Below, in pieces: positions 18,001 to 21,000 of a stretch of 64,000 nt of DNA. This stretch comes from Escherichia coli (GTDB lineage: Bacteria; Pseudomonadota; Gammaproteobacteria; Enterobacterales; Enterobacteriaceae), in the NCBI RefSeq assembly GCF_050920415.1, contig NZ_CP169310.1; one strand, given 5' to 3'. The stretch's first letter is position 1, and each line of letters begins with the position of its first letter. The position numbers are program-made.

Positions 18001-21000
18001 CGTCACTGGCGTTTTATTTTCATCTTCATACCTGACCATCAGTGCAGCTCTGCCAAATAAATGTTGCTCGTCACTGTTAAGATGAATTTCTTTCATCTCC
18101 TCCATATTATCAGTGACCTTATCAAAGACACCGAGCACTTCATACGCTCCCTCGATAACCTGCCCGACAATATCACCTTTATGTGGAACGCGGATTTCGC
18201 TAAAATTATTTCCGCACACCAGGCCATTTGTGCAGACAAAACGAAAAATTCCGGGGATCATCTGATAACTGGATGAACCATCATGTGAATTAAGCAGGAT
18301 AATTTCAGGAACTTCCTGCCCGTTAATATGCCCTTCCCTGCGAAGACGTAACATATGTTTACTGTATTCGCGACGTCCCGAATCACGAACCCGACTCTGA
18401 CAGGCAAAGAATGGCTGGAAACCTTCATCACGTAACTTATTGATGATATTGATTGTTGGAATATACATATAACGTTCACTCCGGGACTCATGTTTATCAC
18501 CGGAAAATACCGAAGGCACGAACTGCATTAATTAATCATCCGTTAAAGGACGTTCACGGCGGATGGAATTATACCGACCAAAACGGGAAGCTAATCGCAT
18601 AACAGCCACTCCTTTATGAAAGAATAAATTTAATAAAAATTTTTTCCGCTTAATATCATCCCTCCCGATCTCCATTAACAAGATTGCAACAATCAGGAGG
18701 GATATTCATCACATCCGGTCAGCAGATCGCCCGGATATCGAGGCCGGCACGCTTAATCTGACGCAGGAACTGTTTGAAGTGATCGGCTTCCGCAATGTTG
18801 ATATGGCGGAACTGCTTATCCACACCCTGACTGAGCGCGTAGCTATAACTGAAGGCCATCTTTTCCGGGTGGCTTTTGCGATATTTTTTCAGCTCAGTCA
18901 GGCTGCTGAATTCCAGGACGTCCCACTCTTCCCCGGTGTTTTTTTTCTTCCCGGCAACAAGAAGCGTGTACGACGCGGTGTTAACGTGGATATTTCGGGT
19001 ACTCATCCTGCTTTCTCCTCTCTCAGGTTTTCAGCCCCCATCATCTTGTATGTAATCAACGAGCGATGATTAGCTACCATCGCATGAAGCGGAGAGAACC
19101 TACCCCATCATCTAAGGTAATAACCTTCGTCAACAGCTATAGTCCTCTGCTTCACCTTTCACGCCAGCATTAACATTGAACGGTTGCCAAGAGCTAAGAC
19201 TCTGCATGAACAAGACAAATTGGCGTGATGGTTATGTGAAAGGAGAAAAAATGCCGATGTACCAGTTAGGTATTGATGTCAGTAAAAACACTCTTGATCT
19301 ATGCCTCTTACGGGAGGGCATCAAAGGGAGGATCAAAACTCGTAAGCTAAAAAATACTGCTGATGCGGCTAAAGTCGTGGCAGAGTGGCTTAAAAAGCAA
19401 TCCTGTGAACTGGGCGAAGTTCATATCATCATGGAAGCCACTGGGGTATATCATGAACCTCTGGCTTATGGCCTTCACTTTGCTGGCGCCAGAATTTCTT
19501 TAGCCAATCCTCACCGCACAAGGGAATTTGCCAGAGGTATGAATATCCTGACCAAGAATGACAAAGTTGATGCCTGGATGCTGGCTTGTTATGGCTCCCT
19601 TAAAGAGCCTGAGGCATGGACTCCACCACCAGAATCTGTGCGGTATCTTAGAGCTCTTTTACGCCGCAGAGACGCTCTTGTTGCAGACAGCACCAGAGAA
19701 AAAAACAGACTTGAAAAATCTGTTTTTACAGACAGCCCTGATGCCGTCAGGGCGTCAATTGAAAACATGCTTCAGGAGCTGAGCAATGAGATCGAACATC
19801 TTGATGTCCTGATCCAGGAACATATTAAAACTCACCCTGAGCTCAACCAGGATTTCAGACTGTTAACATCAATAAAATCTGTTGGTTACCTGCTGGGATT
19901 AAATATGCTGGCAATACTCAAAAGCCATTCATTCGAATCAGCAGAGCAGGCAGCAGCATTCCTTGGTGTAGTTCCGGTAGAAAGGAGATCTGGCACATCT
20001 GTAAAGGGAAAACCTAAATTATCTAAAATTGGACCACCGGAGATAAGAACAAAACTTTATCTTGCCGCTTTATGTGGGCTGAGATTCAACCCTGTAATGA
20101 AACAGATGTATACGAAGTTATGCCAGAGGGGAAAGTCAAAGATGTGTGCTATTGGAGCATTAATGCGAAAACTTGTGCACTGGTGCTATGGTGTGCTGAA
20201 AACGCAGTTACCATTCGACGCTGAATACAACCAACAAAGTCATTATAAAACAACATGTTAATCAACACCATCGGAGCAATACTGAAGCAACATGTTTGTA
20301 TCTTTTTCCTTCTATCATGGTATTTAACTGAGCATCTGCTCTTTTTATAAAAACTCAGAGAAAATTTCTCCTGAAAATGGAATGTTCAAACATCACATAA
20401 TTTTCTTGACTAAACACGGTAGCTGTTGAGTTTCGGGAGCCGCGGTTTTGACGTTTTGCGGGGACCTGTCTTTTGTTCCCTCCGGTATTAACCATCACCC
20501 GTTTGAGAACCTTCGCCGCAAGGGGCATCACTGCCACGGCCGGAAACGACTGTCCGGGGGCAGACCGCAAAAGTTTTTGCCTGCTTTTGGGCAAAAACTT
20601 TTGTGGGATGTGCATTTCACCCCTGGACTGGCGGAGACGGTTGTGGCTGTCTTTGCCCCCGGCGACAGGGGCTTACACGGGTGTATGGCACCGGATACAA
20701 CAACGGGCAGGCACCCGCCGCAACGACGAAGAGCGCGTGCGCGAAACGGCGTTGCCCCTCACATCCCGGCGGCCTTTTGCCGGGATGCCAGGAGCGCAGG
20801 CCACGGCGCGACAGAGGCGGCGCGACCGTTCCGGTCGCTGCAAGCCGGGGGTTTTCACGCATCGGACCGTAGCGACAGCCCGAAACCGCGCCAGCGGGTT
20901 CGGCGGAGACTGGCAGGTGCGCCAGCAGCTGCCTGTCGGAGTCGGGCCTGACGACCGGATGCCGCCAGGCAGCCGGGAGCCGAAGGGGCGCCCGGCAGAC

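What the first reader, a model, noticed from the sequence alone, without database searches (positions are those of the whole stretch)
19100..20423. IS110-family element inserted directly downstream of structured repeat copy 1
Copy 2 of the repeat is followed within 40 bp by the ssb start. Copy 1 is followed instead by about 90 bp and then an IS110-family element, so the gene that copy 1 originally served has been displaced or separated. The two small leading-region genes beyond the IS (17779-19006) may have lost their early single-strand promoter.
Basis: inference. Interest (0 to 1): 0.3.

Follow-up and report, generated by a model that had tools for sequence, protein, structure and literature searches.

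The report
Bridge-RNA insertion sequence homing to plasmid promoter
A 1.38-kb IS110-family insertion sequence sits exactly between an F-plasmid single-strand promoter (Frpo1) and the two early genes that promoter normally drives, and its own guide ("bridge") RNA matches that spot, so it homed there; this is a known kind of mobile element in a specific and possibly consequential place.

Summary
The inserted DNA is 19047-20424 (1378 bp, a CT dinucleotide at each junction), not 19100-20423.

At least 2307 related plasmids, including F itself, have the 95-aa gene joined directly to the repeat. No gene was displaced. Repeat copy 1 is Frpo1 (93.7% identical to F). The 95-aa ORF and the DUF932 gene appear to be F's ygeA and ygeB, named from position and one paper.

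The element is a canonical IS110-subgroup bridge recombinase. It has DEDD and Tnp domains and matches IS621 at E=4e-48. Its left end folds into two internal-loop stem-loops.

The first loop carries CCCCAUCAUCU, identical to the left flank, and UCAACAG, complementary to the right flank. Circularisation would create the promoter TTGACT-17-TGTAAT.

All 21 occupied sites I read use the same sequence, CCCCATCATCT|GTTGA. They lie in front of four different downstream genes, ssb among them.

In complete E. coli genomes, 292 of 299 matches to the element, its fragments or a 72% relative are on plasmids.

Whether ygeA and ygeB lose early expression is untested. It is plausible: 1.4 kb of antisense, untranslated leader has been added. 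A survey for decay of these genes was inconclusive.

Verdict: an ordinary kind of element with notable site specificity.

The parts
16875..16889 (+). F-type oriT nick-region sequence GGGGTGTGGTGCTTT. It shows that the + strand is the transferred T-strand and that the leading region lies at higher coordinates.
   Evidence: Exact match, the only one in the window. That this is the F nic sequence and how the strand is transferred are from my own knowledge of F oriT. traM lies at 16166-16549(-) and the SLT gene at 16835-17482(+).
17779..18600 (-). DUF932 gene, apparently the orthologue of F ygeB (273 codons). Here it is interrupted by an in-frame TAA at codon 23 (18532-18534), leaving a 249-aa ORF from a downstream ATG.
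   Evidence: Pfam DUF932 1.3e-51. Translation compared with F shows E23*. Allele survey.
18719..19006 (-). 95-aa gene, apparently the orthologue of F ygeA and the first gene normally served by Frpo1.
   Evidence: 93/95 residues identical to the F protein encoded directly downstream of F Frpo1. Couturier 2023 places ygeA and ygeB downstream of Frpo1.
19007..19046 (-). Native ygeA leader left on this side of the insertion. 19036-19046 (CCCCATCATCT) is the left half of the target plus the CT core.
   Evidence: Empty-site comparison. The 11-mer occurs only here and inside the IS, against 0.05 expected by chance.
19047..20424 (+). IS110-family insertion sequence: 1378 bp including one copy of the CT core, no terminal inverted repeats, CT at both junctions.
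   Evidence: Occupied versus empty sites. 77 plasmid records carry a near-full-length copy.
19051..19056 (+). TGTAAT, the -10 half of the promoter that would form only on the circular RE-LE junction.
   Evidence: Read from the sequence. TTGACT (20406-20411), 13 nt of RE, 4 nt of LE (17 nt spacer), then TGTAAT. The principle is described for IS110 elements in PMC11208160.
19086..19153 (+). Bridge RNA stem-loop 1, the target-binding loop. The stem is 19086-19099 paired with 19142-19153. The left target guide CCCCAUCAUCU lies at 19103-19113 and the right target guide UCAACAG at 19130-19136.
   Evidence: MFE fold. Consensus fold of 5 relatives with 3 compensatory pairs in this stem. The guides match the flanks 11/11 and 7/7.
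19154..19243 (+). Bridge RNA stem-loop 2, the donor-binding loop. The left donor guide ACGGUUGCC lies at 19180-19188 and the right donor guide CAU[GA]ACAAG at 19205-19214. The basal stem overlaps the Shine-Dalgarno AAGGAG of the recombinase gene.
   Evidence: Folds. This region is nearly invariant among relatives, which share the same IS ends. The right donor guide is a discontiguous complement of CTTGTATG, as described for IS621.
19251..20261 (+). Recombinase gene, 336 aa from ATG 19251 (RefSeq starts at 19257, giving 334 aa).
   Evidence: Pfam PF01548 and PF02371. IS621 4.3e-48 and ISCro4 2.1e-44. The exact 334-aa protein is on 450 contigs.
20262..20424 (+). Right end of the IS, with the -35 TTGACT at 20406-20411, the left donor ACACGGTAG, and the CT core at 20423-20424.
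   Evidence: Sequence. The same terminal sequence occurs in relatives L019 and L021.
20425..21030 (-). Repeat copy 1, an Frpo1-type (class 1) single-strand DNA promoter region. The predicted T-strand stem-loop is 20430-20747. The right half of the target, GTTGA, lies at 20425-20429, 5 nt outside the foot of the stem.
   Evidence: 93.7% identity to F Frpo1 and 86.6% to F Frpo2. ssDNA fold -93.8 kcal/mol, z = -7.1.
28564..29169 (-). Repeat copy 2 (Frpo2 type), 41 nt upstream of ssb (28070-28522). Its leader reads CCCCATCACCC|GTTGA, two mismatches to the target including the core, and it is unoccupied.
31920..32347 (-). Repeat copy 3 (66-88% identical to copy 1). It has no matching left target.

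Best explanation
An IS110-subgroup insertion sequence has integrated by RNA-guided, site-specific recombination into the 16-bp sequence CCCCATCATCT|GTTGA. That sequence forms the start of the leader between the Frpo1 single-strand promoter stem-loop and ygeA in F-like plasmids.

Shown here:
- The exact boundaries and the CT core at both junctions.
- The recombinase domains.
- A left-end RNA with the two-loop bridge-RNA architecture.
- Perfect matches of both target guides to the two flanks.
- Partial and discontiguous matches of the donor guides to the IS ends, in the pattern described for IS621.
- A sigma-70 promoter that exists only on the circular RE-LE junction.
- Use of the same target in front of four different genes.

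Inferred by analogy with IS621:
- The element excises as a circle.
- The junction promoter then expresses the bridge RNA and the recombinase.
- The RNA pairs one loop with the circle junction and the other with the plasmid target, and recombination occurs at the CT core.

Inferred consequence. The + strand is the transferred strand, and Frpo1 transcribes towards lower coordinates. Early transcripts made on incoming single-stranded DNA must therefore cross 1378 nt of untranslated antisense IS sequence before reaching ygeA and ygeB. This should delay and probably reduce their zygotic expression. The stem-loop itself, and its priming role, stay intact.
For: - Boundaries: empty sites in at least 2307 plasmids, read in L006-L008 and in F. 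21 occupied sites read with identical junctions.
- Protein: Pfam; IS621 and ISCro4 structures.
- RNA: MFE fold; 5-sequence consensus fold with compensatory changes in the target-loop stem; variation among relatives is concentrated in the guide positions, while the donor loop and the IS ends are invariant.
- Guide-target matches: 11/11 and 7/7 in this element. The 11-mer is expected 0.05 times per window.
- Co-variation in relatives: the Pantoea left guide matches its own left flank over 10 nt, and the ColV relative's right guide TTAGCAG matches its own right flank CTGCTAA.
- Pairing rules (left guide pairs the bottom strand, right guide the top strand, CT included, discontiguous right donor guide, junction promoter) are as published (PMC11208160).
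- Four left-flank contexts: ygeA, a 98-aa allele, another gene in L003, and ssb in L026 and L027.
- Plasmid restriction: 292 of 299 matches in complete E. coli genomes are on plasmids; this count includes fragments and the 72% relative.
- Orientation: the nic-region sequence is on the + strand at 16875.
- Frpo1 identity and fold.
- Importance of Frpo1 and ygeA in F: deleting Frpo1 lowers the transconjugant frequency to 25% against 93%, and deleting ygeA lowers it to 3.9% (PMC9849209).
Against: - No experiment here shows that this copy is active or that the RNA is made. Rfam returned no bridge-RNA family match.
- The left donor guide matches the donor at only 7 of 9 positions.
- In two relatives one guide does not match the present flank: the left flank of L019 and the right flank of L021.
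- On the consequence: no convincing intrinsic terminator lies on the antisense strand (counts at chance level). 33 of 42 IS-bearing plasmids still carry an annotated DUF932 gene, against about 51 of 57 IS-free ones. IS-bearing plasmids are found in several Inc types and species. Any cost is therefore modest, and read-through may suffice.
Confidence: 0.8

Rival explanations
1. There was a single ancestral insertion. The element entered the Frpo1-ygeA leader once, and its presence in many plasmids and contexts reflects vertical inheritance plus homologous recombination among mosaic F leading regions, not repeated homing.
For: Most copies share the same ygeA flank. Frpo copies are long, near-identical repeats that recombine: some IS-bearing loci have ygeA on the left and the methyltransferase/DUF3560 context on the right. 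Truncated remnants in EHEC and ETEC plasmids show that the association is old.
Against: Four different genes lie to the left of identical junctions, including ssb at a different Frpo copy. The IS copies in these contexts are 97-99.9% identical, whereas the flanking genes are different genes. The guide sequences match the target perfectly, which predicts repeated homing.
Confidence: 0.15
2. The insertion is functionally neutral. Frpo1 transcripts read through the IS, or ygeA and ygeB have other promoters, so the insertion has no effect on early gene expression or transfer.
For: No terminator signal above chance on the antisense strand. The stem-loop is intact. Most IS-bearing plasmids keep intact ygeA and ygeB. 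The exact recombinase protein is on 450 contigs, and most carrier plasmids are typed as conjugative.
Against: The insertion adds 1378 nt of untranslated RNA ahead of the genes, a typical substrate for Rho-dependent termination (established knowledge, not tested here). The single-stranded state lasts only 1-3 minutes in F. Two independent ygeB nonsense alleles and one ygeA frameshift occur among the IS-bearing loci read, and none among four IS-free loci; this sample is small and not phylogenetically independent.
Confidence: 0.35
3. One reading: the IS displaced or replaced a gene that originally lay between repeat copy 1 and the 95-aa ORF.
For: None beyond the contrast with copy 2, which is followed directly by ssb.
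Against: In at least 2307 plasmids, and in F, the repeat is joined to the 95-aa gene with a 40-nt leader and nothing else. The junctions carry only the CT core, with no loss of flanking sequence.
Confidence: 0.02

Closest known systems
IS621 / ISCro4 (IS110 subgroup bridge recombinases; Durrant et al. 2024, PMC11208160; PDB 8wt6, 9t56)
   Same: A recombinase with DEDD and Tnp domains. A CT core at both junctions. No terminal inverted repeats. A bridge RNA of about 180 nt encoded in the left end upstream of the gene, with a target-binding loop and a donor-binding loop. The left guide has the sense of the top strand and the right guide is complementary to it. The right donor guide pairs discontiguously. 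A sigma-70 promoter is rebuilt across the RE-LE junction.
   Different: It is a different element; I did not compute percent identity to IS621 (phmmer E=4e-48). Its natural target is not a chromosomal REP sequence. It is a 16-bp sequence in the leader of class 1 single-strand promoters on F-like conjugative plasmids, and the element is almost entirely plasmid-borne. Its left guide is longer (11 nt matched, against 9 in IS621).
ISPpu10 / ISPpu9 (IS110 family, Pseudomonas putida; bioRxiv 10.64898/2026.03.19.712850)
   Same: The targets lie beside a DNA hairpin (REP) in intergenic 'safe' positions.
   Different: ISPpu10 is reported to require a stem-loop 5' of the target and to lack the 5' RNA stem-loop. 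Here the hairpin (Frpo) lies 3' of the target on the top strand, the RNA keeps a 5' stem-loop, and dependence on the hairpin is untested.
Frpo1 / ssp1a of plasmid F (Masai & Arai 1997; Couturier et al. 2023, PMC9849209)
   Same: Copy 1 is 93.7% identical to F Frpo1, sits upstream of the ygeA and ygeB orthologues, and folds as a long imperfect stem-loop in the transferred strand.
   Different: Here it is separated from ygeA by the IS. In this plasmid copy 1 and the ssb-proximal copy are nearly identical (2 differences in 606 bp), against 92% in F.
IS4321 / IS5075 and IS1111-attC elements (IS1111 subgroup)
   Same: These are IS110-family elements that home to one conserved sequence carried by other mobile elements (from my own knowledge).
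   Different: They belong to the IS1111 subgroup, whose non-coding RNA region lies downstream of the gene and which has sub-terminal inverted repeats. The present element has the IS110-subgroup layout.

Membership tests
IS110 family, IS110 subgroup (bridge recombinase elements) | Recombinase with an N-terminal DEDD (RuvC-like) domain and a C-terminal Tnp domain | tested here: met
   PF01548 6.7e-25 (residues 6-156) and PF02371 8.3e-19 (residues 203-287). Aligns over 324 residues to the IS621 recombinase at 4.3e-48. The GID, EATG, D..D and SG(S/T)S motifs align in the printed alignment.
IS110 family, IS110 subgroup (bridge recombinase elements) | No terminal inverted repeats, and a short core dinucleotide (CT) present at both junctions instead of a conventional target duplication | tested here: met
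   The empty site reads ...CATCATCT|GTTGAG.... The occupied site reads ...CATCATCT|TGTATG...GGTAGCT|GTTGAG.... The ends TGTATGTAAT and ACACGGTAGCT are not inverted repeats of each other.
IS110 family, IS110 subgroup (bridge recombinase elements) | A long non-coding left end upstream of the gene that encodes an RNA with two internal-loop stem-loops | tested here: met
   The 204-nt left end folds into a 5' hairpin plus two stem-loops with large internal loops. The consensus fold of 5 relatives keeps them, with 3 compensatory pairs in stem 1. Stem 2 is invariant and so uninformative. The MFE z-score of the whole RNA is only -1.84. Rfam 15 gave no family hit.
IS110 family, IS110 subgroup (bridge recombinase elements) | Loop-1 guides match the flanking target (left guide = top-strand sense of the left flank plus core; right guide = complement of core plus right flank) | tested here: met
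   CCCCAUCAUCU (19103-19113) equals 19036-19046. UCAACAG (19130-19136) is the reverse complement of CTGTTGA (20423-20429). Guide and flank co-vary in two relatives, although one guide in each of L019 and L021 does not match its present flank.
IS110 family, IS110 subgroup (bridge recombinase elements) | Loop-2 guides match the element's own ends (the donor) | tested here: inconclusive
   The right donor guide CAU[GA]ACAAG is a discontiguous complement of CTTGTATG, 8 of 8 positions with a 2-nt bulge. The left donor guide ACGGUUGCC matches ACGGTAGCT at 7 of 9. This pattern resembles IS621 but is not perfect pairing.
IS110 family, IS110 subgroup (bridge recombinase elements) | A promoter reconstituted across the RE-LE junction of the circular form | tested here: met
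   TTGACT (20406-20411), a 17-nt spacer, then TGTAAT (19051-19056) exists only when RE is joined to LE. This is sequence-level evidence only.
IS110 family, IS110 subgroup (bridge recombinase elements) | RNA-dependent excision and integration activity | not testable with these tools
   Indirect evidence only: identical junctions at 21 sites in front of four different genes.
Class 1 single-strand DNA promoters (Frpo / ssi) | Sequence homology to F Frpo1 or Frpo2 | tested here: met
   93.7% over 430 nt to F Frpo1 and 86.6% to F Frpo2.
Class 1 single-strand DNA promoters (Frpo / ssi) | A long, stable imperfect stem-loop in the transferred strand, upstream of leading-region genes that are read from that strand | tested here: met
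   DNA fold of the + strand 20425-20760: -93.8 kcal/mol, z = -7.1, 0 of 100 shuffles as stable. The + strand carries the nic-region sequence. The downstream genes are on the - strand.
Class 1 single-strand DNA promoters (Frpo / ssi) | -35 and -10 boxes rebuilt in the stem, and transcription from single-stranded DNA | not tested
   I could not place the hexamers confidently by eye. Activity needs experiments of the kind in PMC9849209 and PMC12672017.

The most novel reading that the evidence does not exclude
The position next to the Frpo stem-loop may be mechanistically exploited rather than merely tolerated. Target capture could be gated by the adjacent DNA hairpin, as reported for ISPpu10. 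Alternatively it could be coupled to conjugation: the target's top strand is the transferred T-strand, and one preprint reports that IS110 integration proceeds mainly by top-strand insertion. On this reading the element is a specialist hitch-hiker of conjugative-plasmid leading regions that also retunes zygotic expression of ygeA/ygeB or ssb.
Probability: 0.1. Interest if true: 0.7.

Novelty: new member of a known kind. Interest (0 to 1): 0.35.

Why it matters
Frpo-type single-strand promoters and the genes behind them (ygeA, ygeB, ssb, psiB) are currently being worked out as determinants of plasmid establishment. In F, deleting Frpo1 or ygeA lowers transfer several-fold to more than 20-fold (PMC9849209).

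A naturally occurring IS that homes to the first bases of these leaders provides ready-made natural variants. In them the promoter and its genes are uncoupled while the stem-loop is untouched. About 77 of roughly 2400 comparable plasmids in PLSDB carry it. Such variants are useful for separating the transcription role of Frpo from its priming role.

It is also a clear natural example of a bridge RNA programmed against a sequence found on other mobile elements rather than on the chromosome. That programming would explain why 292 of the 299 matches in complete E. coli genomes are on plasmids.

For genome annotation, the correct boundaries (19047-20424) matter. So does recognising that the 86-aa ORF spanning the IS right end and Frpo, often labelled 'single-stranded DNA-binding protein', is spurious.

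Tried and rejected
1. An Rfam scan of 18500-21200 at E<=1 found no bridge-RNA or other relevant family. The only hit was a sub-threshold miRNA-precursor match that merely reflects the Frpo hairpin.

2. At first I took the 'single-stranded DNA-binding protein' labels under the IS hits as evidence for insertions next to ssb. That label belongs to a spurious ORF (window 20355-20615, - strand) spanning the IS right end and Frpo. Genuine ssb-adjacent insertions were found only later (L026, L027).

3. I tested for relaxed selection on ygeA and ygeB downstream of the IS. Two independent ygeB nonsense alleles and one ygeA frameshift occur among the IS-bearing loci read, and none in four IS-free loci. 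An annotation-level survey gave 33/42 against about 51/57 with an annotated DUF932 gene. The counts are confounded by clonality and annotation quality, so I judged the test inconclusive.

4. I looked for guide-flank co-variation in relatives. It held for the Pantoea left guide and the ColV relative's right guide. It failed for the ColV relative's left flank and the Pantoea right flank, probably because those flanks have since been rearranged.

5. I tried to place the -35 and -10 hexamers of Frpo in the stem by eye and found no confident assignment.

6. Literature searches for IS110 together with Frpo or 'leading region' found no paper containing IS110 alongside either term. The bridge-RNA search listing showed a conjugative-plasmid mention in only one paper, which is unrelated. 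ISfinder could not be consulted, so the element's ISfinder name, if it has one, is unknown. RefSeq calls it only 'IS110 family (RNA-guided) transposase'.
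Full report
**Setting**

The window is part of an F-like conjugative plasmid. It is 100% identical over the tested stretch to pCFSAN004180G, NZ_CP012500. The tra operon runs on the minus strand (traM 16166-16549). The F nick-region sequence GGGGTGTGGTGCTTT lies on the plus strand at 16875-16889.

The plus strand is therefore the transferred strand, and the leading region extends to higher coordinates. The leading genes are on the minus strand:
- DUF932 gene, 17779-18600
- 95-aa ORF, 18719-19006
- psiA and psiB
- a ParB-like gene
- ssb, 28070-22 (that is, 28070-28522)

Three copies of a G+C-rich structured repeat are present: 20425-21030, 28564-29169 and 31920-32347. Copy 1 is 93.7% identical to F Frpo1 and 86.6% identical to F Frpo2. 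Its plus strand folds as a long imperfect stem-loop, 20430-20747, at -93.8 kcal/mol with z = -7.1.

The 95-aa protein is identical at 93 of 95 residues to the F protein encoded directly behind Frpo1. The DUF932 gene corresponds to the next F gene. The F record carries no gene names. Couturier et al. place ygeA and ygeB downstream of Frpo1 (PMC9849209), so I take these two genes to be ygeA and ygeB.

Yes, with corrected coordinates. The ORF 19251-20261 has both IS110 Pfam domains (6.7e-25 and 8.3e-19). It matches the solved IS621 and ISCro4 bridge recombinases (4.3e-48 and 2.1e-44).

I joined the two flanks into an artificial query. At least 2307 plasmid records matched it as one uninterrupted piece. 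In three of them, and in F, the junction reads ...GGTTTTCAGCCCCCATCATCT|GTTGAGTTTCGGG...; F has one difference, TTTGA. In the window the same sequence is split as ...CATCATCT|TGTATGTAATC...ACACGGTAGCT|GTTGAG...

The inserted DNA is therefore 19047-20424, 1378 bp, with a CT dinucleotide at both junctions and no terminal inverted repeats. The left end is 53 bp too far right. No spacer separates the IS from the repeat.

**What the element is**

The 204-nt left end (19047-19250) folds into a small 5' hairpin followed by two stem-loops, each with a large internal loop.

Loop 1:
- Its 5' side carries CCCCAUCAUCU (19103-19113), identical to the left flank plus core (19036-19046).
- Its 3' side carries UCAACAG (19130-19136), the reverse complement of core plus right flank, CTGTTGA (20423-20429).
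- The 11-mer occurs only at these two places in the window, against 0.05 expected by chance.

This is the published rule for bridge RNAs: the left target guide pairs with the bottom strand, the right target guide pairs with the top strand, and both include the CT core (PMC11208160).

Loop 2:
- It carries ACGGUUGCC, which matches the right-end terminus ACGGTAGCT at 7 of 9 positions.
- It carries CAU[GA]ACAAG, a discontiguous complement of the left-end terminus CTTGTATG. Discontiguous pairing of this guide is also described for IS621.

Joining the right end to the left end would create TTGACT-17 nt-TGTAAT, a near-consensus promoter that does not exist in the integrated state.

**Comparative support**

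I aligned the left end with four relatives: a 72%-identical element from ColV plasmids, and elements from Pantoea, Klebsiella michiganensis and Serratia plasmids.
- All share the same termini.
- All have an almost invariant loop 2.
- Nearly all the differences fall in the loop-1 guide positions.
- The loop-1 stem shows three compensatory pair changes.
- The Pantoea left guide matches its own left flank over 10 nt, and the ColV relative's right guide TTAGCAG matches its own right flank CTGCTAA.
- Two other guide-flank comparisons failed: the ColV relative's left flank and the Pantoea right flank. I attribute this to later rearrangement but cannot show it.

**Site specificity**

I read 21 occupied sites. 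Every one has the same junctions.

The gene to the left differs among them:
- ygeA in most loci
- a 98-aa allelic gene (L004, L018, L025, L028)
- another gene in L003
- ssb itself (L026, L027), meaning a different Frpo copy

In this window the ssb leader reads CCCCATCACCC|GTTGA. That is two mismatches to the target including the core, and the site is empty.

The counts are:
- Near-full-length copies occur in 77 plasmid records.
- In 5426 complete E. coli genomes, 292 of 299 matching places are on plasmids. This count includes fragments and the 72% relative.
- The exact recombinase protein is seen on 450 contigs.

Repeated homing is a much better explanation than a single inherited insertion, although recombination among leading regions certainly also spreads the element.

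**Consequences (inferred)**

The insertion lies 5 nt outside the foot of the Frpo1 stem, so the stem-loop, and presumably its promoter and priming functions, are intact. Transcription from Frpo1 uses the plus strand as template and runs towards lower coordinates. It now has to cross 1378 nt of antisense, untranslated IS sequence before reaching ygeA.

In F, deleting Frpo1 abolishes early YgeA production and lowers the transconjugant frequency to 25% against 93%. Deleting ygeA lowers it to 3.9%. The single-stranded window lasts only a few minutes. A delay or reduction in expression is therefore plausible.

Against a strong effect:
- No terminator signal above chance lies on the antisense strand.
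- IS-bearing plasmids are widespread.
- 33 of 42 of them retain an annotated DUF932 gene, against about 51 of 57 in an IS-free sample.

In the window itself ygeB carries a nonsense codon (E23*, 18532-18534). A second, different nonsense allele and a ygeA frameshift occur in other IS-bearing loci, and none in the four IS-free loci I read. The sample is small and clonal, so I treat this as a lead and not a result.

**Comparison with what is known, and novelty**

The element meets the sequence-level criteria of the IS110 subgroup, apart from imperfect pairing of the loop-2 donor guides with the element's ends; activity was not testable. Its mechanism is that described for IS621. RefSeq already labels recent copies 'IS110 family RNA-guided transposase'.

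What I did not find described is its natural target, the leader of class 1 single-strand promoters on F-like plasmids. No paper in the searched library combines IS110 with Frpo or 'leading region'. The listing from the bridge-RNA search showed a conjugative-plasmid mention in only one paper, which is unrelated.

Two recent preprints leave room for a more interesting link with the Frpo hairpin or the transferred strand. One reports hairpin-gated targeting by ISPpu10. The other reports predominantly top-strand insertion. Nothing here tests either idea.

**Verdict**

This is a correctly spotted IS with a misplaced left boundary. It is an ordinary kind of element, but it is precisely targeted and it uncouples a functionally important promoter-gene pair. 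I rate it as moderately low interest.

Noticed in passing
window 18532-18534 (- strand codon 23 of the DUF932/ygeB gene, 17779-18600): GAA to TAA nonsense change (E23*) in ygeB. RefSeq does not list a protein for this gene in this plasmid lineage. The same allele occurs in L002/L013, L010 and L017. A different nonsense allele occurs in L009, L012 and L014, and a ygeA frameshift in L015.
   Followed up: partly
window 21157-23957: An IS66-family element (tnpC 21185-22756, tnpB 22776-23123, tnpA 23123-23773, all on the - strand) is inserted just upstream of Frpo copy 1. Its tnpA-proximal terminal 100 bp is present twice in perfect tandem (23758-23857 and 23858-23957). The element's end coordinates are my reading by eye.
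   Followed up: no
window 20425-21030 versus 28564-29169: Frpo copies 1 and 2 differ at only 2 of 606 positions in this plasmid, whereas F's two copies are reported as 92% identical. This suggests recent gene conversion or duplication. The one functionally relevant difference lies just outside the repeat: the leader reads CATCATCT at copy 1 and CATCACCC at copy 2.
   Followed up: partly
L005 2952-3090 and L016 2231-2370 (CP057156.1): The first 67 bp of the IS left end are tandemly duplicated, and the duplicated unit ends exactly at the guide-coding 11-mer CCCCATCATCT. This is consistent with either slippage between the two 11-mers or an insertion into the element's own pseudo-target followed by deletion.
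   Followed up: partly
L004 about 3028-3045 (NZ_CP104511.1 and at least 6 similar chicken-isolate plasmids, hits H25-H31): This IS variant lacks the first 5 bp (TGTAT) of the left end. The loss removes part of the right donor sequence and shifts the junction -10, so these copies are probably immobile.
   Followed up: no
window 20355-20615 (- strand, 86-aa ORF): This ORF spans the IS right end and the Frpo stem. It is annotated in many RefSeq records as 'single-stranded DNA-binding protein' or as hypothetical, and is almost certainly spurious. It misleads feature-based searches.
   Followed up: yes
L019 2415-3891 (p1ColV5155) and L024 (E. coli STE15 chromosome): A 72%-identical sister element has the same termini and donor loop but a different target loop. 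It is present in about 110 ColV-type plasmids next to an IS30 element and a fragment of a gene annotated 'transposase zinc-binding domain-containing protein'. Its right guide matches its right flank and its left guide does not match its left flank.
   Followed up: partly
L026 (NZ_OZ040492.1, a 6769-bp circular record): This small 'plasmid' consists only of a leading-region segment (ParB-like gene, DUF905, psiB, hok) with the IS at the ssb leader. It may be a circle excised by recombination between Frpo copies, or an assembly artefact.
   Followed up: no
window 19236-19250: The Shine-Dalgarno sequence (AAGGAG) of the recombinase gene is paired within the basal stem of the donor-binding stem-loop. 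This suggests that the bridge RNA fold also limits translation.
   Followed up: no
window 29168-29278 and 32451-32504: AGCAGT/AAGAAG-type short tandem repeats lie immediately upstream of Frpo copies 2 and 3 (repeat family D3).
   Followed up: no
window 17727-17782: A 27-nt inverted repeat, 96% complementary, overlaps the ygeB stop codon and lies in the gap to the SLT gene. It looks like a bidirectional terminator.
   Followed up: no
L003 1820-2839 (pRM14721): A second, different IS110-family element (ISEc66) lies within 200 bp of the left end of this IS, in a leading region whose ygeB-like gene is degraded (3 stop codons).
   Followed up: no
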